From a virus (Duplodnaviria; Caudoviricetes): DNA of 64,000 bases. Within the stretch, counting starts at the first letter, position 1. Each line of letters opens with the position of its first letter. A program made the position numbers and the translations under genes. Under the pieces are notes generated by a model, which was not told the origin of the DNA, did no database searches, and saw only the letters and a program-made list of their open reading frames with translations. Location: positions 64,001 through 128,000 of the IMG/VR virus record IMGVR_UViG_3300011429_000087. One strand, written 5' to 3'. Below are positions 783-24,363 of this stretch, piece after piece.

Positions 783-3700
783 AATCATTCACTCATTTGC
801 ACGTTCACTCTAGGGCGTCCTTTTTGGATGCGTCATGCTCTGCCGAAGCTCTAGCAAAACAAGCTAAAACGCTTGGCATGTCTGCGATTGCACTCACGGA
901 TCATAATAATCTATTTAATGCGATACCTTTTTATAAAGCGTGTCAGAAAAATGGTGTTAGGCCAATTCTAGGGGTAGAAATCAATTTCGTTGAAGATTGT
1001 GCGGAAAGTATTCAGTTAAAGAATAAGACGACTTATCATGTTGTGCTTCTGGCAGAAAATAATACTGGATGGCATAATATCGTTAAGATAGTTAACTTAG
1101 CTAATGATGAAAAACATTACTATTATACTCCACGTATTGATTATGCAACGTTAGAGGCTCATAAAGAAGGCGTTATTCTTCTTACCTCATGTCATGATGG
1201 CATTCTTGCTAGCCATCTAAAGCCCGGCGATGACGGACAGATTAATAATACATTCAAGGCCGATGCCATCGTACGTAAACTACTGACGGTTTACGACCGC
1301 GACCATTTCTATATCGAAGTTCAGGATATGGGCGACCCACTTTATCAGGTAATTAATGCTGCCTTACGAAAAGTGGCAATGAAGTATGGAGTTAAGACGG
1401 TCGCCACAAATGATATACATTATACCTATTCAAAGGATGCAGAAGCCCACAAGGCACTAAGAAGAATGGCCGAATTTCAGCGTTCTAACGCTAGTGGCAG
1501 CACATTTAATACTGATGAATATTTTATCAAGTCCAGAGAAGAAATGGATAAGTTATCCTTCTTAGATAGTGAAAAGGATCTATCTACAGAAATTGCTGAT
1601 CGGTGTAAGGTTGATATTAACTTCTCAGAAAAGCGTTTACCGTCTTATGGATTCTTGCCAGAAGGCAAGACCGCCATGCAGTATCTACGAGATGAAGTAG
1701 ACTCGAATACATCAGATTGGTCAGCGGAATATAAAGCCAGAATCGAAAAAGAATTAACAGATATTGAAGCACTCGGATTCGCCGATTACTTCTTAATTGT
1801 GTCTGACGTTGTTGGTTGGGCAAGACAGCAAAATATCATGGTTGGGCCGGGCCGTGGATCTGCTGGCGGTAGTCTTGTTAGCTATGCTCTTGGCATTACT
1901 AATATCGACCCAATGAAATACGGACTCATTTGGGAACGTTTCTTAAACATAGGTCGCAAAAGTCTACCTGATATTGATACAGACTTCCCACGCTCTAAAC
2001 GTACTCAGGTCATCGACTATATTCGTGCCAGATTCGGCCACGGAAAGGTAACGCAACTTGCGACCTTCAATAAACTGGCCGCCCGAGCCGTTCTAAAAGA
2101 AGTCTTTAAGATTTACGGCATGTCATTCGAAGAAGCCAATGCAATAACTTCGCTTGTACCACTAAAGAACGACGAGCACAGTCAAATCTCGCTTGACGAA
2201 GCGATTGAAATGGTTCCCGAACTTAAAACCTATGAAGAAAAATACAAGGCTTGGTTCGCGGTGGCTAGAGCATTAGAAGGCTGCTACAAATCGCTTGGCA
2301 CGCACGCCGCAGCAGTTGTGATCTCCAACAAGGATTTCTCTGAAGGCGAATATCCCCTTTGTAGGGCTTCAGATAACAAATCACTGATTTTTGCTTGGGA
2401 TATGCAGAGCGTAGACGATCTAGGACTTCTTAAGCTAGACGTTCTTGGTCTGTCTACTCTTGATATCATTCAAGATACGCTAGATATTGTTAATAGGCGT
2501 CACAAACTTAGTCTTACGCTTGACACAATTCCGCTCGATGATGCAAAGACGTTTACTTTGATGGGTGAAGGTAAAACGGTTGGCGTGTTCCAGCTAGAGA
2601 AACAGTTGGGTAAGACTTGGAGCAAGCAACTAAAACCTCAATCGCTCGAAGAGATATCAGATTTAGTTTCACTTATACGTCCGGGACCAATGGAGAGCCG
2701 GATGCATGAAATGTATCGAGACGTAAAGGCCGGCGAACGAATGCCAGACTATGTGCATCACTCCCTGAAGCCAATTTTAGACTCGACCTATGGTGCTCTC
2801 CTATATCAGGAACAGGTTATTGAGATTTGTAAAGTCTTGGCTGGTATGTCTCTAATCGACGCCGATCTTGTACGAAAGGCGATGGGTAAGAAGAAACCAG
2901 AGGAAATGCGAAAGTGGCAGAAGACATTTGTGGATGGTTGCAAGGCCAATCATATCCCGGAAGAGGCCGCAGACCAAATCTGGTCATATATCGACAAATT
3001 CTCTGGATACGGCTTTAATAAATCACACGGCATTGGATATGCTCTCCTGGCATATTATACAGCTTTCTTAAAAGCAAACTATACTATAGAATTTATTTGT
3101 GCCAATCTGAAGAATAGCGAAGGGGCACAGGATACGATGGAAGACATTAATCAATTTGTGCATGATGCAAAACTCTTCCATATTGAAATAATGCCGCCAA
3201 AGATTGAGGTTGGCAATTCTGGCTTTGACATTATCAACGATAAGCAGATTGCATTTGGACTCTCCTCCCTTAAGGGGGCGGGCGAGAAAGGCATAGATTC
3301 AGCCAGGAAGGCCCTCTTGGAGACAGAGAAGAAAACCGACTACAATAGCTTTTTGTTCAAGACTTATGAAGTCGGCGTTAATCGCCGCGTCATGGAAGCT
3401 TTAATTTATGGCGGTGCTTTTGATTCTTTTAAAATGTCACGTAATCAAATGTTTGCACACTTTAATCTTTATGAGTCATTAACAGATAATGAAAGGAAGA
3501 TTATTACTGATCATCCCAAGTATAATTGGATAGAAATTATTAGGGCATTATCTGACGACACCAGATCACAAACCATGAAGGATCAGTGGCAAATAAAAAT
3601 TCCAAATATTCGTCGTCGGGCGACTCTTAAAGAATTGCTCAAGACTTTTGATGGCAGTGATGCATTTGATAATTTCGTTTCCAAGCTTGCCTGGGAAAAG

Positions 3701-4033
3701 GAATTCCTGGGAATTTCACTCAGCGGAGACGAAACTAATTTATTTAATTCTAAGCATAAATGTAGTGATATTATTAACTTCGGTGGTGAAGATATGCCAG
3801 TAGAGGTTATTGTGCGTGTCGAAGGTATTAAGAAACATATGACCAAGAATAAAGAAGAAATGGCATTTTTAACTGTGGCCGATAATACTGGTAAATTAGA
3901 TAACTTTGTTGTGTTTCCTAGAACATGGGATTATGCAAAAAATCTGATAATCGTTGGAAATATTGCCAGAATATATGGTAAGGTTGATAAACGCGGATCA
4001 GTCTTGGTTAATAAAATGGAGCGGATGAGATAA
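779..4033 (+). CDS. dnaE: DNA polymerase III alpha subunit (PHP, catalytic, HhH and OB domains)
   Basis: HLHVHS, ALTDH, NDIHY, GRGSAGGSLVSYALGIT, PDIDTDF, KLDVLGL, YGFNKSH. Confidence 0.97.
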   Translation: MKSFTHLHVHSRASFLDASCSAEALAKQAKTLGMSAIALTDHNNLFNAIPFYKACQKNGVRPILGVEINFVEDCAESIQLKNKTTYHVVLLAENNTGWHNIVKIVNLANDEKHYYYTPRIDYATLEAHKEGVILLTSCHDGILASHLKPGDDGQINNTFKADAIVRKLLTVYDRDHFYIEVQDMGDPLYQVINAALRKVAMKYGVKTVATNDIHYTYSKDAEAHKALRRMAEFQRSNASGSTFNTDEYFIKSREEMDKLSFLDSEKDLSTEIADRCKVDINFSEKRLPSYGFLPEGKTAMQYLRDEVDSNTSDWSAEYKARIEKELTDIEALGFADYFLIVSDVVGWARQQNIMVGPGRGSAGGSLVSYALGITNIDPMKYGLIWERFLNIGRKSLPDIDTDFPRSKRTQVIDYIRARFGHGKVTQLATFNKLAARAVLKEVFKIYGMSFEEANAITSLVPLKNDEHSQISLDEAIEMVPELKTYEEKYKAWFAVARALEGCYKSLGTHAAAVVISNKDFSEGEYPLCRASDNKSLIFAWDMQSVDDLGLLKLDVLGLSTLDIIQDTLDIVNRRHKLSLTLDTIPLDDAKTFTLMGEGKTVGVFQLEKQLGKTWSKQLKPQSLEEISDLVSLIRPGPMESRMHEMYRDVKAGERMPDYVHHSLKPILDSTYGALLYQEQVIEICKVLAGMSLIDADLVRKAMGKKKPEEMRKWQKTFVDGCKANHIPEEAADQIWSYIDKFSGYGFNKSHGIGYALLAYYTAFLKANYTIEFICANLKNSEGAQDTMEDINQFVHDAKLFHIEIMPPKIEVGNSGFDIINDKQIAFGLSSLKGAGEKGIDSARKALLETEKKTDYNSFLFKTYEVGVNRRVMEALIYGGAFDSFKMSRNQMFAHFNLYESLTDNERKIITDHPKYNWIEIIRALSDDTRSQTMKDQWQIKIPNIRRRATLKELLKTFDGSDAFDNFVSKLAWEKEFLGISLSGDETNLFNSKHKCSDIINFGGEDMPVEVIVRVEGIKKHMTKNKEEMAFLTVADNTGKLDNFVVFPRTWDYAKNLIIVGNIARIYGKVDKRGSVLVNKMERMR

Positions 4034-11313: not shown

Positions 11314-12174
11314 ATGATATCTTATCTAGTTTCGTCCTATGATAGTGGACAGTACCTTGACGGACACTTACGTAATCTTCTGGAAGAACAGACCAGCAAA
11401 GATTTAGAGGTTATCGTAGTTGTTCCAAATTCGCCAGGGATAGATGCGGTTATAGCCCATAAATGGGCCAAGCAAGATTCCCGTGTTAACTTTTTAGAAC
11501 TGTCATATAGAGAACCATATGGGGCTTCATGGCTCCGTGCCTGGATGGAGGCAAAAGGTGAGTTCGTATGCAACTCTAATGCGGATGATTTTCATCACCC
11601 TAAGTTTAATGAAATATTCTATCAGATGGCTCACGGCGAAATGCATCATGAAATTCCTGGATATAATTCACCAAATGAAGATCCAGCATTTTGGTATGGC
11701 GGAATAGTTGTAGTAGACGAAGATACTAAACAGGTCAAAGGCGTTGGGAAGAGACAACCATTTGATCGCGTCAGATTTTCTTACGAGTGCGATGGTGGTC
11801 CACAGGTCTGTTGGCGAAACGATCTTGTTTTTACCCAAAGACTTAATTGGGATCTTATGTGGGAACGTTCTAGACAACATACGTCGGCATTTGATTACTG
11901 GTTATGGCTATATTTTATGTCATTAGGATATCGTGGTAGCGTCATAAACGAATGCTTAACTTATTATACACAACGTAAATTCTCTATTGAGAACCGCAAC
12001 AAAGGGCAGAATACTTACGAAGCTCTTGCGTCAATTGCCGAGTTCTTCCCGCACAATTTTAATCCTGGCGGGCCTCGCTACAAAGAGCATCCAGAATTCG
12101 GAGATTTTAAAAATCTTCCTCCAAAGGAAGAGTGGGTCCAGGCTCGTAATGAGGGGCGTCAATGGAAAGCATAA
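11314..12174 (+). CDS. GT2 glycosyltransferase
   Basis: SYLVSSYDS, NSNADD, AFDYWLWL. Confidence 0.85.
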   Translation: MISYLVSSYDSGQYLDGHLRNLLEEQTSKDLEVIVVVPNSPGIDAVIAHKWAKQDSRVNFLELSYREPYGASWLRAWMEAKGEFVCNSNADDFHHPKFNEIFYQMAHGEMHHEIPGYNSPNEDPAFWYGGIVVVDEDTKQVKGVGKRQPFDRVRFSYECDGGPQVCWRNDLVFTQRLNWDLMWERSRQHTSAFDYWLWLYFMSLGYRGSVINECLTYYTQRKFSIENRNKGQNTYEALASIAEFFPHNFNPGGPRYKEHPEFGDFKNLPPKEEWVQARNEGRQWKA

Positions 12175-13298
12175 AACGCAAAGCGAGAGTAGTTCACCTA
12201 ATGAAAGACCTGGGCTTAGGTGGCACACAAAAGACCGCACAACTATTCTGCAAAGCATTGGTGAAGAAATATGCCGATTTCTATGATGTAACCGTTCTTT
12301 ATAATGCTGCCCACGATATGACTCGCTATAGGGATTTCCTAGAAATCCTTGGTTCAGAGGAACGTATGGTTCCTTATCGGTTTGATAACCAAGGGGTCGA
12401 AATCTTGCAGTCTTTGCGGCCAGACATTACACATGTATATAGGGCCGGTATACCAGAATGGCCCATCCCGGGCAAGGATATCAAACAAACCATATTTGTT
12501 GAAACTAATGTTTTTGGTTTTCTAGATCCAAATCCCAACGTGAATAAAACTTTATTCATGAGTAATTGGCTCACGGAATGTTCTAAGAGACAGCACGGCG
12601 AAGGAATATTTAATACGCTTGATAAGCAGGGCAGATTTGATTTCATCAATAATCCAGTTGATAGTCCTGCCACAGATGAAAAGCTGATTTTAAATCTCGA
12701 TAAAGATTTTGTAGTTTTGGGTAGATGCGGCAGACCAGATGACGGCATTTATGATGACGTCAATGTAAAGGCGGCTCTAATTCTTCAGGCCAAAGGCCAT
12801 AAAGTTTTCTTTCTTTCTTTGGCTCCGCCGCCTAGAATGATGGACGATTTAGATAAGTATGGTATTCCGCACATCAATATAGCTCCAACGGTCGATCCAA
12901 TCGTTCTCAGTGCTTTCTATAATTCTATTGATATCCTCGCACATGCCCGGGCGGACGGGGAAACGTTCGGAAGTAATATTGCAGAAGCAATGATGCACGG
13001 TAAGCCAGTTGTTACGCATATTGCAATTCCGAGCCATCCTAGAATGGGAGTTTTTCAGGCTCAGACGGAATTGGTTAAGGATGGAGTTACCGGATTTGTG
13101 TGCGAGCATAATGCCGCAGCGTATGCGGAGCAACTTGAAAAGTTAGTGATTGTTAAGCCAGCAAGAGCAAAATTTGGACAGGCCGGAAAAGAATGGGCCG
13201 TGCGGAATTGCAGCACAGAAGTTTGTGGAGCGAAATTGCACGAAGTATATCAGAATTTATTATATCGTTGGGGCCATACTATTAGACCGAGGAGTTAA
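12162..13298 (+). CDS. GT4 glycosyltransferase
   Basis: LGLGGTQK, ETFGSNIAEAMMHGKPVV. Confidence 0.9.
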   Translation: MESIKRKARVVHLMKDLGLGGTQKTAQLFCKALVKKYADFYDVTVLYNAAHDMTRYRDFLEILGSEERMVPYRFDNQGVEILQSLRPDITHVYRAGIPEWPIPGKDIKQTIFVETNVFGFLDPNPNVNKTLFMSNWLTECSKRQHGEGIFNTLDKQGRFDFINNPVDSPATDEKLILNLDKDFVVLGRCGRPDDGIYDDVNVKAALILQAKGHKVFFLSLAPPPRMMDDLDKYGIPHINIAPTVDPIVLSAFYNSIDILAHARADGETFGSNIAEAMMHGKPVVTHIAIPSHPRMGVFQAQTELVKDGVTGFVCEHNAAAYAEQLEKLVIVKPARAKFGQAGKEWAVRNCSTEVCGAKLHEVYQNLLYRWGHTIRPRS

Positions 13299-13305
13299 CA
13301 AAGTC

Positions 13306-14982
13306 GTGATCAAAGATAATAAAACTTTAGATGGTAGAAATATTATCCATATTACTAATGAATCTCACGCTAAAGTTATAAGGATATGTGATTTATGTCA
13401 AAAAGAAGATATAGTTAATTGGAGAGATATTATTAGGTCTAGAAATAAGAAAAAAAACATGAATTTGTCAGAACTAGATACGTGTAAAAAATGTTCTTAT
13501 AAAATATTTCCTTCTTACATAAAGGGAAAACATTTGTCTTTAGAAACTAGGAAAAAATTATCAGAATTTGGTAAAACAAGATTTAGTAATCCGAAAAATA
13601 AAGAATATCTTTGTGACAGGAATAAAGAAAATAATCCAAACTACAAAAGTGGATTTAGATTAAGACGTGGTGGCCATATATCCAGAAGAGAATTAGGCAA
13701 AGAAATACAAGTTCATAGAGAGATTTATGAACAATATAATAATATAAAATTATTAGATACTGACATCATACATCATATTAATTGTAATCCAATAGACAAT
13801 AGAATAAATAATCTTGCATTATTCAAAACGACCGGCCAGCATATGCATGCACACAGACAATTAGAAAGTATAGCGGCAAAACTTGTAGAGAGAAAAATAA
13901 TTCTTTTCAATCATGATACTGGAGAATATTATTTAGATCCATGCGTTGATTTAAATACATCTCCAATTAGTCTTGGTTTTGAAGATATAGCCATTACACA
14001 ACAAAAAAATATATGTCAGTCTAGACTTGATGTTAATATATCATCTAAAATAACAAAAAAAATTATTCGCCCCGTCCCATTTCTTGCATCAAATATGTCT
14101 ACGGTTATTAATGAGCAATTTTATATTAAATTGTACGATCTTGGAGCACTTGGAATTATGCATCGTGTTTGGGATATAGACGATAATTATATTTTAACTA
14201 TGAAACGAATTTCTAGTCACTGCAACATTGTGGCGGCGTCGGTTGGTGTAGGAGATCGTCAAATCGAACTAGCCAAAAGATTAATAAAAGATGGAAATGT
14301 TAATGTATTATGTATAGATGTTGCTCATGGTTTTTCTGATGTTATAAAATATACGGCAAAAGCGATTAAATCTTTTGATAAAGACGTGCAATTGATTATT
14401 GGTAATACAACTAATCCAGATATTATATATGATATATATCAATATGCCGATTCTATAAAAGTAGGAATTGCCCAAGGACTTGCCTGCGAGACTAAAAATA
14501 CTGCCGGTTGTACAGAAAAACAATTCTCTACTATCTTAAAATTTAAGCAAATCTCGAAAGACTTTGGCATTCCTATTATTGGAGATGGCGGAGTACGTGA
14601 GGCATCAGATTTTGTTAAAGGAATAGCAGCCGGGGCGTCTGCTATAATGGCCGGTTCTACTTTTGCATCTTGTCCCGAGTCAGCCGCAGAAATAGTAGAA
14701 ATAGACGGTGTAAAAAAGAAACTTTATGCGGGAATGGCTAGTCGTTACGTTCAAGAAAAATGGCGTGGTGGACTAAAGCCGGGGACTTGTTCTGAAGGAA
14801 AGATTGTGTATCTTGATATAAAACGTCCCGTCGCGGAATTAATTGAACGTTATGCAGGAGCATTAAGAAGTGGAATTACGTATAGTGGGGCGACTTCTAT
14901 TAAAGAAATGCAAGACAGGGCGGAATTTATTCGTATTCCAAATTTGGAGGGAACCCCACATGTGGCTAATCGTTTGGTTTAA
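13306..14982 (+). CDS. NUMOD3-HNH endonuclease fused in frame to an IMPDH/GMP reductase-family TIM barrel
   Basis: GTG start after GGAG; KGKHLSLETRKKLS (NUMOD3), HHINCNPIDNRINNL (HNH); then LGFEDI, ASNMSTV, IDVAHG, KVGIAQGLAC, IIGDGG, GMAS, LRSGITYSGA. Confidence 0.85.
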   Translation: MIKDNKTLDGRNIIHITNESHAKVIRICDLCQKEDIVNWRDIIRSRNKKKNMNLSELDTCKKCSYKIFPSYIKGKHLSLETRKKLSEFGKTRFSNPKNKEYLCDRNKENNPNYKSGFRLRRGGHISRRELGKEIQVHREIYEQYNNIKLLDTDIIHHINCNPIDNRINNLALFKTTGQHMHAHRQLESIAAKLVERKIILFNHDTGEYYLDPCVDLNTSPISLGFEDIAITQQKNICQSRLDVNISSKITKKIIRPVPFLASNMSTVINEQFYIKLYDLGALGIMHRVWDIDDNYILTMKRISSHCNIVAASVGVGDRQIELAKRLIKDGNVNVLCIDVAHGFSDVIKYTAKAIKSFDKDVQLIIGNTTNPDIIYDIYQYADSIKVGIAQGLACETKNTAGCTEKQFSTILKFKQISKDFGIPIIGDGGVREASDFVKGIAAGASAIMAGSTFASCPESAAEIVEIDGVKKKLYAGMASRYVQEKWRGGLKPGTCSEGKIVYLDIKRPVAELIERYAGALRSGITYSGATSIKEMQDRAEFIRIPNLEGTPHVANRLV

Positions 14983-15220
14983 AAATCTAAAATGGATTAG
15001 GGCCATCAGAGATTATGATGGGTTAGTAAATTCAGTAAACGTCGGATTAAAACTTCAACGTGAATGTGATAGATTAAAAGAAGAGAATGATCAGGTGCGA
15101 CAAGTATTTCATGCACATAGAACTGCCGCCATACAATCAATAGTTGAAGCTCATAAAGCCGAACAAGAATACAAGAGAAAACTTTTAGATGACAAAAATT
15201 CGAATCGTCCATCATTCTAA
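14960..15220 (+). CDS. hypothetical coiled-coil protein
   Basis: ATG at 14960 downstream of GGAGG; fills the gap between neighbours. Confidence 0.6.
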   Translation: MWLIVWFKNLKWIRAIRDYDGLVNSVNVGLKLQRECDRLKEENDQVRQVFHAHRTAAIQSIVEAHKAEQEYKRKLLDDKNSNRPSF

Positions 15221-16274
15221 AACAGTAGGATATTCTGGTACAGATAGAACTGCACAATTAATGTGTAAATATCTAGCAAAAGATCCTCGTTTCGAACCAT
15301 TTTTGGTTTATAGAACTGATGGTGATAATTCTCGCCTAGAGATTATGCGTGATATTCTAGGTGATAGCCACGTAGTACCCTACGAATGGGTGCCAGGAAA
15401 GAAGGGACGAAATTCGCCATATCTTCCAGAGTCCGATAATCTATACGAAGTAATTAAAAAGATCAATCCTGATATCATGCACGTTCATAGGTCTGGTTAT
15501 CAGGAATGGCCTTTACGATATATCGCTCCTAAAGCAAAATGGGTAGAAACAAATATTTTTGGATTCGGAGACAAATCAAACGATATTGATCGGCACATCT
15601 ATATATCTGATTTTATTCGTAACACCGCCCTTAAGTGTGGAAATCCACACGGCCCAACACTATACAATCCTATTGAATCACCCGTCCCACATAACGAATT
15701 GTCGCCGATTTCATTCAAGCAGGAATTAGGATTCTGGCACGACACCATTCTTTTGGGTAGAATTGGAAGACCTGACAACTTTGACCCGATTGCCTTACGG
15801 GCATTTGCACAACTAGAACAGGAGAATCCGAACGCTCATTATCTCGTAGTTAACGCTTGCCACAACTGGATCAGCACCGCTAAACAACTTGGTATCAAGA
15901 ATATTACGTTCTTACCGGCCATCATTGACGATAAATTACTGTCTCGTTTTTATCAAAGCCTAGATATTTATGCACACGCCAGAAGCGATGGTGAATGTTG
16001 TCCGTGCAATATTCAGGAAGCCATGATGCATGGATTACCAGTTGTCTCACATAGGAGCACCATCTATAATGGACAGTCTGAGATTATTGGGGATTCTGGT
16101 TTCGTAGTTCCTGTGGGCGACAACGAAGCTTATTATCAAGTTCTTAAAGCACTTGTGGAAGACGCTGGATTAAGAAAACAATTCGGCGAAAAGGCCGCAA
16201 CTCGGGCGAATCAATTCTTTAGAGCGGATATTATTGTTGACAGACTTAAAGAGATTTATTATGAAATCATTTAA
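15189..16274 (+). CDS. GT4 glycosyltransferase (paralog of 12162)
   Basis: GRIGRPD, AHARSDGE, EAMMHGLPVV. Confidence 0.88.
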   Translation: MTKIRIVHHSKTVGYSGTDRTAQLMCKYLAKDPRFEPFLVYRTDGDNSRLEIMRDILGDSHVVPYEWVPGKKGRNSPYLPESDNLYEVIKKINPDIMHVHRSGYQEWPLRYIAPKAKWVETNIFGFGDKSNDIDRHIYISDFIRNTALKCGNPHGPTLYNPIESPVPHNELSPISFKQELGFWHDTILLGRIGRPDNFDPIALRAFAQLEQENPNAHYLVVNACHNWISTAKQLGIKNITFLPAIIDDKLLSRFYQSLDIYAHARSDGECCPCNIQEAMMHGLPVVSHRSTIYNGQSEIIGDSGFVVPVGDNEAYYQVLKALVEDAGLRKQFGEKAATRANQFFRADIIVDRLKEIYYEII

Positions 16275-19944: not shown

Positions 19945-20232
19945 ATGTGCGTTGTATCAATGATCGGAGATCATTTCGGTGGAGAATGGATTAAGAAACC
20001 CTGGATTATTTGGCCGATGCTTCCAGACCAGCCCTATCAGATCAATATCTCTAATATTTCTAGGGAAGAATTTGAAACTCTTAAAAAAGAGGTCCAGCTT
20101 TTGAGAGACTTGTTAATTAAGGCGATAGCTTATGATAAGGCAAATGGCGAACCTCATTGTGAGAAGCCAGAGAAAGTTAAATTACTTAAAGATATTGCGA
20201 AAGCATTAGGAGTAGAATTAAATGGATTTTAA
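19945..20232 (+). CDS. hypothetical phage protein
   Basis: MCVVSMIGD start; coupled to neighbours. Confidence 0.65.
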   Translation: MCVVSMIGDHFGGEWIKKPWIIWPMLPDQPYQINISNISREEFETLKKEVQLLRDLLIKAIAYDKANGEPHCEKPEKVKLLKDIAKALGVELNGF

Positions 20233-20554
20233 AGATTATCAGGAAAAAACTGCCACCACGGCTATTTATCCTGGACGGGGTACAATCAATGGGGTGCTTT
20301 ATACAGCCCTAGGACTTGGCGAAACTGGCGAAGTACAGGGTAAGGTAAAAAAGATTCTACGAGATAATAATGGTATTATTTCAGCGGAAACAGTTTCAGC
20401 CATTAAAGGTGAATTAGGCGATTGCCTCTGGTATATTTCCCAACTTTCAAGCGAACTAGGTCTTGATTTAAATACAGTTGCTCAAGAAAATTTACAGAAA
20501 TTAGCAGATAGAGCGGCGAGAGGAACTCTTAAGGGTTCTGGAGACAATAGATGA
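20222..20554 (+). CDS. MazG-like nucleotide pyrophosphohydrolase
   Basis: GETGEV...KK...ELGDCLWY...ENLQKL. Confidence 0.88.
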   Translation: MDFKDYQEKTATTAIYPGRGTINGVLYTALGLGETGEVQGKVKKILRDNNGIISAETVSAIKGELGDCLWYISQLSSELGLDLNTVAQENLQKLADRAARGTLKGSGDNR

Positions 20555-20949
20555 GAAATAAGTTACCACCTAGGCTAAAATTACAACTTATATGGTTTAA
20601 GATTAAAAAACATATTTGGTGTCGGTGGTTTAAAAAATGGCATCGACGCTGTTATCCAGAAGTTTGGGTTGGTGGAGATATTACTCGATACCATTGTTTT
20701 GATTGTATGCCATGTGGATTTTTCATGGATCACTTATCAGAGATTATTAAATATAATGACCACGGACCAGAATGTCGAGACTGTCTACTTCCTTATATAA
20801 ATTTTGATTTAGATACGACGCTACCTGATGATCAGTGGCGAGAAGTAAGTAAGGGTGTTGACTTATTATGTGCTAATTGTATAGTGAAGCGAGCTTCTAA
20901 ATTACCTGGAGTAGTTGCGACACGCATGGTAATAGAGATTGTAAAATGA
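20551..20949 (+). CDS. hypothetical Cys-rich protein
   Basis: Several CxxC motifs; ATGA overlaps at both ends. Confidence 0.6.
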   Translation: MRNKLPPRLKLQLIWFKIKKHIWCRWFKKWHRRCYPEVWVGGDITRYHCFDCMPCGFFMDHLSEIIKYNDHGPECRDCLLPYINFDLDTTLPDDQWREVSKGVDLLCANCIVKRASKLPGVVATRMVIEIVK

Positions 20950-21917
20950 TACGCCTAATGTATGCAGGTCTTCTTTATGATTATGGAGAGCCCGATAAAG
21001 GCTACTCTTACGAGCATAATAATATCGAAGCTGGTCTACAAGATTGCGAGGATAGAAAACTAATATCGCTACAACGGTTTCATATTGACGCATTTCGTAA
21101 ATCTACTAGTCGAGAAGCATCTTATAAATGGTTAGAGAATGAGATTAGAAATAAATCATTCGACATCTTATTTTATGTAGCCTTTAATGAAAGCTATGAT
21201 ATTCCTACCGAACTATTAAACTTGTGCCGCGACTTCGGTATCAAGACTGTTCAGTGGGATTGCGATTCTTCGTGGCGTTTCCAAAACTGGATTTTACCAC
21301 GCAAGAATTTATTTGACTACTTTATTACTACTCATTCACAAGCTGTTCCTTGGTATCAAGCCGCAGGTATGAAAGTGATCCATTCTCAGTGGGGTGGATC
21401 GCCATTATACTCGGAAGACTTTAGTGTATTTAAAAAGCATGATATTTCTTTCGTCGGGCAATTGCATGGTGTGCGTGGACAAATTATGCGTAAATTAATG
21501 GACGCCGGTTTAAATATAAAGATTTGGGGCAATTATTGGAATAATTATACGAATTGGCAAGGATATTTAACCGATTTTGGAGCGATGCTTAAAGTTTTTC
21601 AGGAATCTAAAATCTGTTTAAATCTATCTAATCCTTGGCACGTTGGGACGATGTCTCAGATAAAAGGTAGACACTTCGAAATTCCAAAAGCTGGAGGATT
21701 TCAATTATCTACTCCGGCTGATAATTTGGAGAACTATTTCGTTCCTGGAAAAGAAATTGTCCTTGCTAATGATATCAATGAACTTGTTGACAGATGTAAG
21801 TATTATCTTGACCATGAAGAAGAAAGACAATCTATAGCGATAGCTGGTTGGGAACGTACCCAAAAGGAACATCTTTGGCATCATAGATTTGAAAAGATAT
21901 TAAAGGAAATTGCATGA
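20946..21917 (+). CDS. CgeB-family glycosyltransferase
   Basis: ISFVGQ, SKICLN, KGRHFEIP, YYLDHEEER, HLWHHR. Confidence 0.9.
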   Translation: MIRLMYAGLLYDYGEPDKGYSYEHNNIEAGLQDCEDRKLISLQRFHIDAFRKSTSREASYKWLENEIRNKSFDILFYVAFNESYDIPTELLNLCRDFGIKTVQWDCDSSWRFQNWILPRKNLFDYFITTHSQAVPWYQAAGMKVIHSQWGGSPLYSEDFSVFKKHDISFVGQLHGVRGQIMRKLMDAGLNIKIWGNYWNNYTNWQGYLTDFGAMLKVFQESKICLNLSNPWHVGTMSQIKGRHFEIPKAGGFQLSTPADNLENYFVPGKEIVLANDINELVDRCKYYLDHEEERQSIAIAGWERTQKEHLWHHRFEKILKEIA

Positions 21918-22687
21918 GTTGGACTAAAGAAGAAATTGTAATCTTAAAAGATAGTTATGGAAAAATGCCATCTACTAAAATGCCATTAAATAAAAAATCG
22001 GCTACGATTAGGGCAATGGCAAATCGTTTGGGATTAGAAATTAATACACAAAAAAGCTATGGGAAATATTTCTATGATACTGACTTCTTCTCAGAACCTA
22101 ATATTATCAACTCTTATTATGCCGGTTTTATAGCTGCCGACGGTTGTATTACACAATATAGTAAAAAACGTTATGGATTAGAAATTAAGATTCAAAAACG
22201 TGACGAAAGAATATTGCAAAATTTTAAAAAAGATGTTCATTTTACTGGGCCAATATCATTTGTCAAACGAGCATTACCAAATTATCAAGACTGTGTTCGT
22301 ATTAGAATATCATTGGACGATAGAACCTTGAATGATCTAAAACATCACTTTAATATTACGCCTCAAAAATCAAATATCTTAAAACCTCCATTAATTAATA
22401 ATATCAACGCTCTATCTTTTATTATTGGATATATTGATGGTGATGGCTGGATTTCAAAAAATCCAGACGTAGTTGGGGCAATTGGCACATATGATTTATT
22501 AGGTTGGATAAAGGAAAAATTTGATATATTAGTACCAAATCAACATTATAAGATATCTAAAGTTAATTATAAATATAAAAATCAAGGACATTATATTGTT
22601 GAAGGGGAACGTGCCAGAAATTTGGTTCGCAATTTAAATAAAATTAACGTACCTATCAAATTAGAAAGAAAATGGAATAAAATATGA
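21914..22687 (+). mobile_element. two-motif LAGLIDADG homing endonuclease
   Basis: YYAGFIAADGCI and FIIGYIDGDG; ends LERKW; AT-rich. Confidence 0.88.
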
Positions 22688-22691
22688 AAAT

Positions 22692-23138
22692 ATTAAAATT
22701 GATCTGTTCGGTAATTATTGGGATGGTTATCCTAACTGGAACGGCTACCTCACAGACTTTAGTGCGATGCTCAGGGTATTCCAACAATCTAAAATCTGCC
22801 TCAATTTATCCAATCCCTGGCACGTTGGGACTATGCCTCAAATCAAGGGAAGACATTTTGAAATCCCACAGTGCGGAGCTTTTCAGATTAGTACACCCGC
22901 AGATGACATCAACAGTTATTTTATCCCCGGGAAAGAAATTGTCATTGGCAACGATATTGAATCGCTTGCCGCCGCCTGTAAGAGTTACATTAATGCAGAC
23001 GGCGAGCGGGAGATTATTGCAAAAGCGGGTTATGACAGGATGTTGCGGGACCACCAATGGTTTAATCGTTTTGAGAAAATACTAAAATGCATTACCTTGT
23101 CAGTGAAACCCTTAAGGCTATCGAACAGGCCCCACTAG
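22692..23138 (+). pseudogene. displaced 3' half of a CgeB-family GT (duplicate of the 3' end of 20946)
   Basis: Frame of 22767 reads IKIDLFGNYWDGYPNWNGYLTDFSAMLRVFQQSKICLNLSNPWHVGTMPQIKGRHFEIP; no N-terminal domain. Confidence 0.85.
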
Positions 23139-23740
23139 GACTTAAATTTGTTCTTCCAGATGAAGTAGCAGGATGGTGTCCTATAGAACTAGGATCTGTT
23201 CTTGGTACACTTCTATTATCTGGTGATAGAAAATACTTAGAAGTTGGTACTTTTTGTGGACGAAGTTTAATTTATGCACTTCGTACAAATAAAAATACTA
23301 AGGCGTATGTTATAGATCCACTATTAGATTCAATGAAGGTCGCCAATTCTAATGTCTGGCTTCATTGGAGTAAAAATGTCGTTGACTATGAGATTAAAGA
23401 TCAAATAACTTTATATCGCGAGCGTATCGAACATTTTCAGGGAGAAATTAAAGATATTGATATAGCATTTGTAGATGGTAATCATGACTCCGGCCACACA
23501 TACGAAGCACTTAAAAAAGTACAAAATTATCTTGCCGATAATGCCATAATAATTGTAGATGATTATGAAATCTTTGGTGGTCCCGGACAAACTCCATTTC
23601 CAGGGTATGAGGTTGATCTTGAAAAGCCCGTAAAAACAGATGTTCATAAATATCTAGCAGATACGCCGGAAGTTACGGTGATTGCCTATACGCCGTGGCT
23701 CAATTCTCAAATCTATTTACATTTTCAGAGGGCTAAGTGA
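23087..23740 (+). CDS. class I SAM methyltransferase (Methyltransf_24-like)
   Basis: LEVGTFCGRS, FVDGNH, IVDDY. Confidence 0.88.
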   Translation: MHYLVSETLKAIEQAPLGLKFVLPDEVAGWCPIELGSVLGTLLLSGDRKYLEVGTFCGRSLIYALRTNKNTKAYVIDPLLDSMKVANSNVWLHWSKNVVDYEIKDQITLYRERIEHFQGEIKDIDIAFVDGNHDSGHTYEALKKVQNYLADNAIIIVDDYEIFGGPGQTPFPGYEVDLEKPVKTDVHKYLADTPEVTVIAYTPWLNSQIYLHFQRAK

Positions 23741-24363
23741 GTAATTTAATATTTATGGACGTTGGGGCGAATACAGGACAATCTTTAGAAGCTGCCCTTC
23801 TATATCCTTTTGATACTATATATTGCTTTGAACCAGTAAAGAAGTTTTATTCTGAATTAACTAAAGTGGCACGGAATAATTTTAAAGGATCTGTAATATT
23901 TAATAACTTTGGCTTATATAATGACCATAAACGATTACCTATCTATGGACCAGTAGATGGTCCAGATGGATATGCTGCCAGTATTTATTCCGACCATCAA
24001 GATGTAAAGGATGGCATAGAGATGTGTACGTTTCTCGATGTTAATGACTGGATGAGAACAAATCTATCTTATGGTGATGCAGTAATTATGAAGTTAAACT
24101 GTGAAGGTGCAGAAGTTGATATTGTTAATAGACTATTAGATACAAACATATTTAGATATATGGCAAATGTAATGATAGATTTTGATGCAGTAAAAATTCC
24201 ATCTAAAAAAGCTGAAGTAGCACCACTAATGACACGCTTAAAACCATTTAAGAATTATGTACTAGCAGAACAGGTTATGCACGGTGCAACTCATAAAGAT
24301 AGAATCTGTAATTGGCTCAATAAATTAGGATTAAAACAAAATGAACAAGTGGCGAAATCGTAA
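23737..24363 (+). CDS. FkbM-family methyltransferase
   Basis: DVGANTG, CFEP, KLNCEGAE. Confidence 0.88.
   Translation: MSNLIFMDVGANTGQSLEAALLYPFDTIYCFEPVKKFYSELTKVARNNFKGSVIFNNFGLYNDHKRLPIYGPVDGPDGYAASIYSDHQDVKDGIEMCTFLDVNDWMRTNLSYGDAVIMKLNCEGAEVDIVNRLLDTNIFRYMANVMIDFDAVKIPSKKAEVAPLMTRLKPFKNYVLAEQVMHGATHKDRICNWLNKLGLKQNEQVAKS

What the first reader, a model, noticed from the sequence alone, without database searches (positions are those of the whole stretch)
20946..23138. LAGLIDADG element that carries its own replacement 3' half of a glycosyltransferase gene
Seen: an intact CgeB-type GT, then the HEG, then a second copy of only the GT C-terminal ~130 codons (GNYWNNYTNWQGYLTDFGAMLKVFQESKICLNLSNPWHVGTMSQIKGRHFEIP versus GNYWDGYPNWNGYLTDFSAMLRVFQQSKICLNLSNPWHVGTMPQIKGRHFEIP). 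The copies differ at many synonymous sites. By eye the upstream copy is more A/T-ending, like the HEG. Known: HEGs in fungal mitochondria invade genes while supplying a new 3' end. Inference: an intron-less insertion near 21510/22692 made a chimeric, cleavage-resistant GT and left the native end as a remnant. This would be a way to swap GT donor-binding domains and diversify the glycan.
Basis: partly seen in the sequence, partly recalled or inferred. Interest (0 to 1): 0.78.

Follow-up and report, generated by a model that had tools for sequence, protein, structure and literature searches.

The report
Homing endonuclease swapped glycosyltransferase gene end
In an uncultured 165-kb phage, a selfish DNA-cutting enzyme gene has entered a sugar-transferase gene while bringing a foreign substitute for that gene's last ~190 codons, leaving the original end stranded downstream; this trick is long known in fungal mitochondria and is seen here in a phage.

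Summary

- **Layout:** an intact 323-aa CgeB-type glycosyltransferase (GT, 20946-21917), then a two-motif LAGLIDADG endonuclease gene (21914-22687). Four bases after its stop comes a second, in-frame copy of the GT's last ~131 codons (22692-23138), which runs into the next gene.
- **Endonuclease-free relative:** L002 has the same gene order, and its GT end matches copy 2 (85% nt), not copy 1 (63%).
- **Hybrid GT:** residues 1-134 resemble L002. From about residue 138 on they resemble a different GT, P0122 (max chi-square, permutation p<1e-4). A shared origin of the two copies is rejected (AU p=0.001).
- **Recent movement:** an independent metagenome contig (L091) is 100% identical from its first base (window 21817, inside copy 1) through the endonuclease gene and the first 68 bases of copy 2. 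Identity then drops to about 80%.
- **Mechanism:** this is the phage counterpart of fungal mitochondrial "mobile ORFs with a carried C-terminus".
- **Wider pattern:** five of 79 related phage endonuclease loci show short gene-end duplicates.

The parts
20946..21347 (+). Native 5' part of the GT gene (residues 1-134), of the L002/P0123 type
   Evidence: At sites where P0123 and P0122 differ, 33 match P0123 and 5 match P0122. Residues 1-100 are 82%/72% identical to P0123 against 43%/58% to P0122.
21348..21509 (+). Co-converted foreign GT segment (about residues 135-188). It is donor (P0122) type and is not duplicated downstream.
   Evidence: The max chi-square breakpoint lies between residues 134 and 138, permutation p<1e-4. 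Residues 151-189 are 90% identical to P0122 against 50% to P0123.
21510..21917 (+). Copy 1: the foreign replacement 3' end of the GT (residues 189-323 plus stop), in frame with the native 5' part, giving an intact 323-aa hybrid
   Evidence: 83% aa identity to P0122, its sister in the tree (aLRT 90). A clade with copy 2 or with P0123/P0136 is rejected (AU p 0.0014 and 0.002).
21914..22687 (+). Free-standing LAGLIDADG homing endonuclease gene: 257 aa, a small N-terminal helix-turn-helix domain plus two LAGLIDADG domains. Its start overlaps the GT stop (ATGA).
   Evidence: Pfam LAGLIDADG_3. Both motifs and their acidic residues are conserved, and the native C-terminus LERKWNKI is intact. The PDB profile hit is I-Tsp061I (2dch), E 7.6e-17. 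The AlphaFold2 model has pLDDT 90 and its top Foldseek hits are I-AniI, I-HjeMI, I-SceI and I-OnuI. The gene is absent from L002 and GC is ~0.29.
22688..22691 (+). 4-nt junction (AAAT) between the endonuclease stop and the first native codon of the remnant
   Evidence: Alignment of naive alleles with the junction.
22692..22759 (+). First 68 nt of the remnant (copy 2). This stretch travels with the cassette.
   Evidence: 100% identical between the window and L091, in a tract that runs from 21817 to 22759 (943 nt). Identity drops directly after it.
22760..23138 (+). Rest of copy 2: the stranded native 3' end of the GT. It is still an open frame but has no start codon before the internal Met at 22767. 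Its stop codon is lost, so it runs 17 codons into the next gene.
   Evidence: 85% nt identity to the L002 GT end. Identity to L002 jumps from 0.4 to 0.8 at 22688. It sits in a clade with P0123 and P0136 (aLRT 98) on a long end branch, 0.21 against 0.04-0.06. The L002 stop TAA reads TCA here.
23087..23740 (+). Downstream methyltransferase gene: the native right-hand neighbour. It overlaps the remnant's end just as it overlaps the intact GT's end in L002.
   Evidence: Pfam Methyltransf_24. The orthologue is at L002 5957-6628.

Best explanation
This is a mobile cassette made of a free-standing LAGLIDADG homing endonuclease gene plus the 3' half of the glycosyltransferase gene lying just upstream of it.

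Shown here:
- The window's GT is a hybrid: native residues 1-134, foreign from about residue 138 to the end.
- The native 3' end sits, promoterless and startless, directly behind the endonuclease gene.
- The same cassette, base for base, sits in a second phage background whose flanks are about 20% diverged. The right crossover lies 68 nt inside the remnant.

Inferred:
- The enzyme cuts endonuclease-free GT alleles at or near the point where native sequence resumes. That is codon ~188/189, in the conserved motif G|IK(V/I)DLFGNYWDGY.
- The left end is resected and pairs with the donor GT in the conserved stretch of residues 100-150.
- Repair synthesis copies the donor's GT 3' half and the endonuclease gene.
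- The right end pairs with the donor's remnant. The recipient's own 3' end is thus kept downstream as the new remnant.
- The first such arrangement probably arose by a one-sided repair with an illegitimate join. This is documented for T4 intron homing.
- The hybrid allele reads LNIKIW where naive alleles read IKVDLF, and the remnant lacks the left half of the site. Neither should therefore be cut.

The side effect is a swap of the whole C-terminal (nucleotide-sugar-binding) Rossmann domain of a phage GT.
For: - Anatomy and frames.
- Endonuclease-free syntenic allele L002, with a copy-2-type end.
- Mosaic GT: segment identities. The max chi-square breakpoint lies at residues 134-138, with 33/5 against 9/48 informative sites, p<1e-4.
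- Trees and AU tests: (copy 1, P0122) aLRT 90; (P0123,(copy 2, P0136)) aLRT 98; copy 1 plus copy 2 as one clade rejected, p 0.0014.
- Divergence: copy 1 against copy 2 is saturated at synonymous sites, while copy 2 against L002 gives dS 0.43.
- L091: 943 nt are 100% identical across the end of copy 1, the endonuclease gene and 68 nt of copy 2, followed by ~56-94% identity. L091's remnant is a different native allele with its own stop.
- The endonuclease is intact: motifs, fold and native C-terminus.
- No intron RNA.
- Same habit in relatives: L021, L050 and L057 carry a 26-34 aa copy of the upstream gene's C-terminus just behind the endonuclease gene (in L057 overlapping its extended 3' end). 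L039 and L033 carry 5'-end duplicates.
- Control for that screen: 1 unrelated hit among 62 ordinary ORFs.
- Precedents: fungal mitochondrial mobile ORFs with a carried C-terminus (PMC3630166); one-sided illegitimate repair in T4 (PMC2988022); gene fragments in phage endonuclease islands proposed as recombination substrates (PMC10055350).
Against: - No cleavage data exist. The target site, enzyme activity and immunity of the hybrid allele are inferred only.
- The donor arrangement was not seen. P0122, the only close relative of copy 1, lies on a 1218-nt contig whose context could not be fetched.
- L091 starts inside copy 1, so the left end of the identical tract is unknown.
- An AU test on the N-terminal 100 residues could not reject a window plus P0122 clade (p 0.46), although identities differ (77% against ~50%).
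- The remnant looks young or constrained. It has no frameshift or stop, deviates at only 1 of 52 highly conserved columns, and has omega 0.26.
- Copy 2 is GC3-richer than this genome. It is also closer to L002 (dS 0.43) than the flanking genes are (dS >= 1.0). The 3' ends may therefore be exchanged often, or be under an unknown extra constraint.
Confidence: 0.85

Rival explanations
1. The GT 3' end was duplicated in tandem within this genome. The endonuclease gene inserted between the copies later, and the copies then diverged in place.
For: Both copies are in the same frame and orientation and are about equal in length.
Against: - Copy 1 plus copy 2 as one clade is rejected (AU p 0.0014, delta lnL 51).
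- Each copy has a much closer relative elsewhere: P0122 at 83% for copy 1, P0136/P0123 at 80-83% for copy 2.
- The foreign tract extends about 55 codons upstream of the duplicated part.
Confidence: 0.03
2. Copy 1 is the native end. The insert is the endonuclease gene plus copy 2, a GT fragment carried downstream of the endonuclease gene as cargo.
For: - Copy 2 is the compositional outlier: GC3 0.46 against 0.24-0.34 for the neighbours, while copy 1 is 0.27.
- Copy 2 is closer to L002 (dS 0.43) than the flanking genes are.
- The first 68 nt of copy 2 do travel with the cassette.
Against: - The N-terminal 134 residues belong to the clade whose members all carry copy-2-type ends, and the GT has a significant internal breakpoint.
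- Copy 2 continues into the methyltransferase gene with the same overlap as in L002.
- Beyond 22759, L091 has a different remnant allele, so most of copy 2 is not part of the mobile unit.
- High GC3 is a property of this gene end in all naive alleles.
Confidence: 0.06
3. The remnant is kept because it does something. One option is a second product: a stand-alone C-terminal domain from Met 22767, or the stop-free +1 frame ORF 22684-23085, whose ATG overlaps the endonuclease stop. Another is a silent cassette for endonuclease-triggered switching of the GT C-terminal domain.
For: - Copy 2 is intact in both genomes and keeps 51 of 52 conserved positions.
- The +1 frame has no stops where about 3.4 are expected (P 0.004), and likewise in L091, L002 and L003.
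- Barth et al. propose that such fragments serve as recombination substrates.
Against: - No start codon or ribosome-binding site lies at the head of copy 2.
- The stop codon is lost in the window.
- The end branch is 4-5 times longer than in functional sisters, and omega is raised to 0.26 against 0.04-0.10.
- The codon-position pattern does not fit coding in the +1 frame.
- All of this also fits a young pseudogene.
Confidence: 0.06

Closest known systems
Fungal mitochondrial mobile ORF elements (mORFs) with a carried C-terminus: Allomyces macrogynus atp6 (Paquin et al. 1994, as cited in PMC3630166); Glomus sp. atp6, atp9, cox2, nad3 (PMC3630166); C-terminal duplications of cob and atp6 beside degenerate endonuclease ORFs (PMC6279837)
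   Same: - A LAGLIDADG ORF follows an inserted foreign C-terminus that is in phase with the gene's 5' core.
- The native C-terminus is stranded downstream.
- The native remnant is much closer to endonuclease-free relatives than the inserted copy is (here 85% against 63% nt; in Glomus atp6 91% against 64%).
- No intron or intein is involved.
   Different: - The host is a dsDNA phage, not a mitochondrion.
- The target is an accessory glycosyltransferase, not a respiratory gene.
- The endonuclease is a separate ORF coupled by ATGA, not fused in phase.
- The same cassette is seen in two diverged genomes with a mapped right crossover.
- The swapped piece is a whole catalytic subdomain.
[quoted passage not shown]
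   Same: - A free-standing endonuclease gene lies between phage genes.
- It spreads by break repair with co-conversion of flanking markers.
- One-sided repair with an illegitimate join gives a route to the first duplication.
   Different: - Those enzymes are GIY-YIG or HNH, not LAGLIDADG.
- No carried replacement gene end or stranded remnant is described for them in that review (no 'duplicat' in the text).
Phage 'HEG-islands' (islands of homing endonuclease genes) with fragments of cargo genes (Barth, Dunham and Seed 2023, PMC10055350)
   Same: - Gene fragments homologous to full-length neighbours lie next to phage endonuclease genes and are proposed to act as recombination substrates for later homing.
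- Endonuclease genes mark boundaries of exchange between phages.
   Different: - That work concerns mostly T5orf172 and HNH endonuclease genes around essential genes of ICP1-like and other phages.
- Here a single LAGLIDADG gene, an in-frame hybrid and both crossovers are resolved.

Membership tests
LAGLIDADG homing endonucleases (monomeric, two-motif) | Two LAGLIDADG motifs, each with its conserved acidic residue | tested here: met
   YYAGFIAADGCI (D76) and SFIIGYIDGDGWI (D177) are invariant in a 14-sequence alignment. Pfam LAGLIDADG_3 scores 31.3 bits against a cut-off of 22.5.
LAGLIDADG homing endonucleases (monomeric, two-motif) | Tandem alpha-beta-beta-alpha-beta-beta-alpha fold like solved members | tested here: met
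   AlphaFold2 model with pLDDT 90.4 and pTM 0.78. All top Foldseek PDB hits are LAGLIDADG enzymes (I-AniI, I-HjeMI, bI3 maturase, I-SceI, I-Tsp061I), probability 1.00, TM ~0.5. The profile hit to 2dch has E 7.6e-17.
LAGLIDADG homing endonucleases (monomeric, two-motif) | Site-specific cleavage of the endonuclease-free allele | not testable with these tools
   This needs an enzyme assay. There is only indirect support: presence/absence polymorphism (L002) and an identical cassette in diverged backgrounds (L091).
Mobile ORF with carried C-terminus (mitochondrial mORF type) | An inserted foreign C-terminus in phase with the gene's 5' core, giving an intact hybrid ORF | tested here: met
   323-aa open frame with its breakpoint at residues 134-138. 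The C-terminal part is 83-90% identical to P0122.
Mobile ORF with carried C-terminus (mitochondrial mORF type) | The native C-terminus lies stranded downstream of the endonuclease ORF and is closer to endonuclease-free relatives than the inserted copy is | tested here: met
   Copy 2 against L002 is 85% nt and 80% aa identical. Copy 1 against L002 is 63% nt and 66% aa. Tree and AU tests agree.
Mobile ORF with carried C-terminus (mitochondrial mORF type) | The endonuclease cuts ORF-less alleles at the insertion point | not testable with these tools
   Inferred only.
Intron- or intein-encoded homing endonuclease | A group I or II intron RNA around the ORF, or an in-frame intein with splice junctions | tested here: not met
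   No Rfam family matches at E<=1 in 20000-24000. The endonuclease gene is a separate ORF in another frame, with its own start and stop. Copy 1 is ordinary coding sequence.
CgeB-type GT-B glycosyltransferase (Pfam PF13524 Glyco_trans_1_2) | A match to the family profile over the C-terminal domain | tested here: met
   Hybrid GT E 3.6e-31 (residues 180-319). Remnant E 6e-25. Enzyme activity and sugar specificity were not tested.

The most novel reading that the evidence does not exclude
This LAGLIDADG lineage habitually travels in phages together with a replacement gene end and leaves the native end behind as its own right homology arm. It would then act as a general engine that swaps C-terminal (or N-terminal) domains between phage genes. 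Here that would mean the sugar-donor domain of glycosyltransferases in a hypervariable glycosylation island, so selfish homing would directly generate glycan diversity. The remnants, or the stop-free +1 frame within them, could also be retained for a function.
Probability: 0.3. Interest if true: 0.7.

Novelty: new member of a known kind. Interest (0 to 1): 0.55.

Why it matters
It shows, with both crossovers mapped and a second genome carrying the identical cassette, that the mitochondrial "endonuclease plus carried gene end" strategy also operates in large dsDNA phages. Homing can therefore replace a whole catalytic subdomain of an accessory enzyme in one step.

It offers a concrete mechanism for mosaicism inside phage genes. 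It explains short orphan ORFs next to endonuclease genes as stranded gene ends that double as homology arms.

It also yields a candidate new LAGLIDADG enzyme with a predictable ~20-bp target, in the sequence encoding G|IKVDLFGNYWDGY, which can be tested directly.

Tried and rejected
The contexts of P0122 (the only close relative of copy 1), P0002 (the nearest endonuclease, 51% identity) and the other contigs with the identical proteins could not be fetched.
- Nothing came from blastn of the region against GenBank phages.
- tblastn of the endonuclease and the GT against GenBank phages gave only distant Lak-phage and gut-phage hits.
- IMG/VR scans with the endonuclease, P0002 and the junction DNA found nothing. 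A scan with P0122 found only ~50%-identity GTs.
- A search for shorter GT fragments gave two uninformative short-contig hits.
- The idea that copy 1 has a 2-codon deletion at the boundary was dropped. It is an artefact of the pairwise alignment. The family alignment shows equal length and a different hexapeptide.
- The AU test on the N-terminal part was not significant.
- GC3 was rejected as evidence that copy 1 is foreign.
- Intron, terminator and promoter scans and DNA repeat searches gave nothing useful.
- An overlapping +1-frame gene was considered and left unresolved.
Full report
**Setting.** The window is bases 64001-128000 of a 164.5-kb IMG/VR virus record, about 80% complete. It encodes a family B DNA polymerase, ribonucleotide reductase and RNA ligase. 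It also has a long island of glycosyltransferase and methyltransferase genes. Neither the GT nor the endonuclease has a close relative among GenBank phages, so this is an uncultured lineage.

**Anatomy.**
- The GT gene (20946-21917, 323 aa, PF13524) is intact.
- Its stop overlaps (ATGA) the start of a 257-aa LAGLIDADG gene (21914-22687, GC ~0.29).
- Four bases after that gene's stop, at 22692, coding sequence for the last ~131 residues of a GT of the same family resumes. It is in the same frame as the GT.
- This copy has no start codon before an internal conserved Met (22767). Its stop has been lost, because L002's TAA reads TCA here.
- It overlaps the start of the next gene, a methyltransferase at 23087, in the way the intact GT does in the relative L002.
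- The two copies are 67% identical in protein and 66% in DNA, with synonymous sites saturated.

**The endonuclease is a real, intact LAGLIDADG enzyme.**
- Both motifs and their acidic residues are invariant in an alignment with 13 homologues. Its C-terminus LERKWNKI is the family's native end.
- A profile search hits I-Tsp061I (E 7.6e-17).
- The AlphaFold2 model (pLDDT 90) shows a small N-terminal helix-turn-helix domain plus two alpha-beta-beta-alpha-beta-beta-alpha domains. It matches only LAGLIDADG enzymes in the PDB.
- Rfam finds no intron.

**Which copy is native.**
- IMG/VR contig L002 has the same gene order: GT2, small ORF, MazG, GT, methyltransferase, methyltransferase and onward. It has no endonuclease gene and no duplication.
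- Its GT end matches copy 2 (80% aa, 85% nt), not copy 1 (66% aa, 63% nt).
- Identity between the window and L002 jumps from background (0.4) to 0.8-0.9 at 22688.
- Among about 90 homologues, residues 1-100 of the window GT are closest to P0123 (the L002 protein), P0124, P0125, P0127 and P0135 (72-82% for P0123). All of these have copy-2-type ends.
- From residue 151 on, the window GT is closest to P0122 (77-90%). P0122's N-terminus is only 43-58% identical to the window's.
- A max chi-square scan of 95 informative sites puts the switch between residues 134 and 138. The counts are 33/5 on the left and 9/48 on the right, permutation p<1e-4.
- In a tree of the C-terminal part, copy 1 is sister to P0122 (aLRT 90). 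Copy 2 sits with P0123 and P0136 (aLRT 98).
- Forcing the two copies together costs 51 log-likelihood units (AU p 0.0014).
- The expressed gene is therefore a hybrid. Its foreign tract starts about 55 codons upstream of the duplicated part, the signature of co-conversion during break repair.

**Evidence of recent movement.**
- The one metagenome scan found contig L091 (Ga0137452_1015649, 2320 nt).
- From its first base (window 21817, inside copy 1), through the whole endonuclease gene and the first 68 nt of copy 2 (to 22759), it is 100% identical to the window (943 nt).
- From 22760 on, identity falls to 56-94% through the rest of the remnant and the methyltransferase. L091 also lacks the window's gene 23737-24363.
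- L091's remnant is a different native allele, intact and with its own stop.
- One cassette therefore sits in two backgrounds that differ by about 20%, with the right crossover inside the remnant.
- The simplest reading is homing in which the donor's remnant serves as the right homology arm and the recipient's own gene end becomes the new remnant.
- The identical hybrid GT and endonuclease also occur on 4 and 5 contigs across three repositories. This, together with L091, excludes an assembly artefact.

**State of the remnant.**
- It has no frameshift or stop, and only 1 deviation at 52 highly conserved columns.
- Its end branch is 4-5 times longer than those of its functional sisters.
- Omega against L002 is 0.26, against 0.04-0.10 for neighbouring genes.
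- It carries a few more private substitutions than its sisters, and its stop is lost.
- This fits a young, no longer translated gene end.

**Inferred target.** Naive alleles share the motif G-I-K-(V/I/L)-(D/H)-L-F-G-N-Y-W-D-G across the point where native sequence resumes. The hybrid allele reads G-L-N-I-K-I-W-G-N-Y-W-N-N there, and P0122 reads LDIKIW. It thereby departs from residues conserved in 93-95% of the family. The remnant keeps only the right half of the motif. This is what a cleavage-immune carrier should look like, but no cleavage was tested.

**Generality.**
- An alignment-based scan gave 79 phage loci encoding this endonuclease family.
- A screen for similarity between the 1.5 kb upstream and the 1.5 kb downstream found five loci with short gene-end duplicates.
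- L021 lies in the same kind of glycosylation island. There, 26 residues of the C-terminus of another CgeB-like GT are repeated directly behind the endonuclease gene, ending at the next gene's start.
- L050 and L057 carry C-terminal remnants of 34 and 29 residues.
- L039 and L033 carry duplicated 5' ends of the downstream gene.
- The same screen around 63 ordinary ORFs of the window hit only the endonuclease gene itself and one HNH-containing ORF flanked by full-length paralogues.

**Comparison with the known.**
- The architecture is that of fungal mitochondrial mobile ORFs with a carried C-terminus: Allomyces atp6, and Glomus atp6, atp9, cox2 and nad3. There too the native end is closer to ORF-less relatives than the inserted one is.
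- For phages, one-sided illegitimate repair in T4 gives a route to the first event.
- Barth et al. noted gene fragments in phage endonuclease islands and proposed them as recombination substrates.
- I found no paper describing a LAGLIDADG cassette with a carried gene end in a phage. The library is not complete.
- I therefore file it as a new member of a known kind, and a clean one.

**Limits.**
- Enzyme activity, the cleavage site, immunity of the hybrid and any change in GT specificity are all inferences.
- Three observations about the native-type 3' ends are unexplained. They have high GC3. Copy 2 and L002 show low dS. The +1 frame in copy 2, L091, L002 and L003 is free of stops.

Noticed in passing
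window 13150-14982 (+), with 12162-13298 and 15189-16274: One open frame joins an HNH endonuclease match (residues 109-263) to an IMPDH/GMP-reductase-like domain (residues 273-598). It is flanked by two 31%-identical full-length paralogues. L021 has the IMPDH-like gene without the HNH. This may be a second endonuclease invasion in the same island.
   Followed up: partly
window 22684-23085 (+1 frame of copy 2); L091 874-1270; L002 5449-5976; L003 5527-5973: The +1 frame of native-type GT 3' ends has no stop over ~131 codons, where synonymous shuffles expect 1.6-3.4 (P 0.004, 0.027, 0.07, 0.006). In the window it starts with an ATG overlapping the endonuclease stop. Copy 1 and five other alleles have the expected number of stops. 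The codon-position pattern does not support coding in that frame.
   Followed up: partly
L021 2097-3709: A second case in a glycosylation island. A 212-aa LAGLIDADG gene (2989-3627) lies between a 300-aa CgeB-like GT and a GT2 gene. About 26 residues of the GT's C-terminus are repeated at 3632-3709, ending at the GT2 start.
   Followed up: partly
L050 2853-3818; L057 2792-3884: C-terminal remnants of the upstream gene (34 and 29 residues, 59% and 48% identical) lie behind endonuclease genes of the same family. The upstream genes are LpxH-like in L050 and a 428-aa gene in L057. In L050 the remnant starts right at the endonuclease stop; in L057 it overlaps the extended 3' end of the endonuclease ORF.
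   Followed up: partly
L039 2941-3745; L033 ~2590-3665: The opposite geometry. In L039 the endonuclease ORF begins with a copy of the first ~16 codons of the downstream fibre-like gene. In L033 a 27-residue copy of the downstream gene's N-terminal region lies upstream of the endonuclease gene.
   Followed up: partly
window 23737-24363 (+): A 208-aa gene between the two methyltransferase genes is absent from both L002 and L091. This is a further presence/absence difference in the island.
   Followed up: no
window 22692-23084 versus L002 5562-5954: The stranded GT end is the most L002-like stretch of the neighbourhood (dS 0.43 against 1.0-3.4 in flanking genes) and is GC3-rich in all relatives. 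This suggests frequent exchange of this gene end between phages, or an extra constraint.
   Followed up: partly
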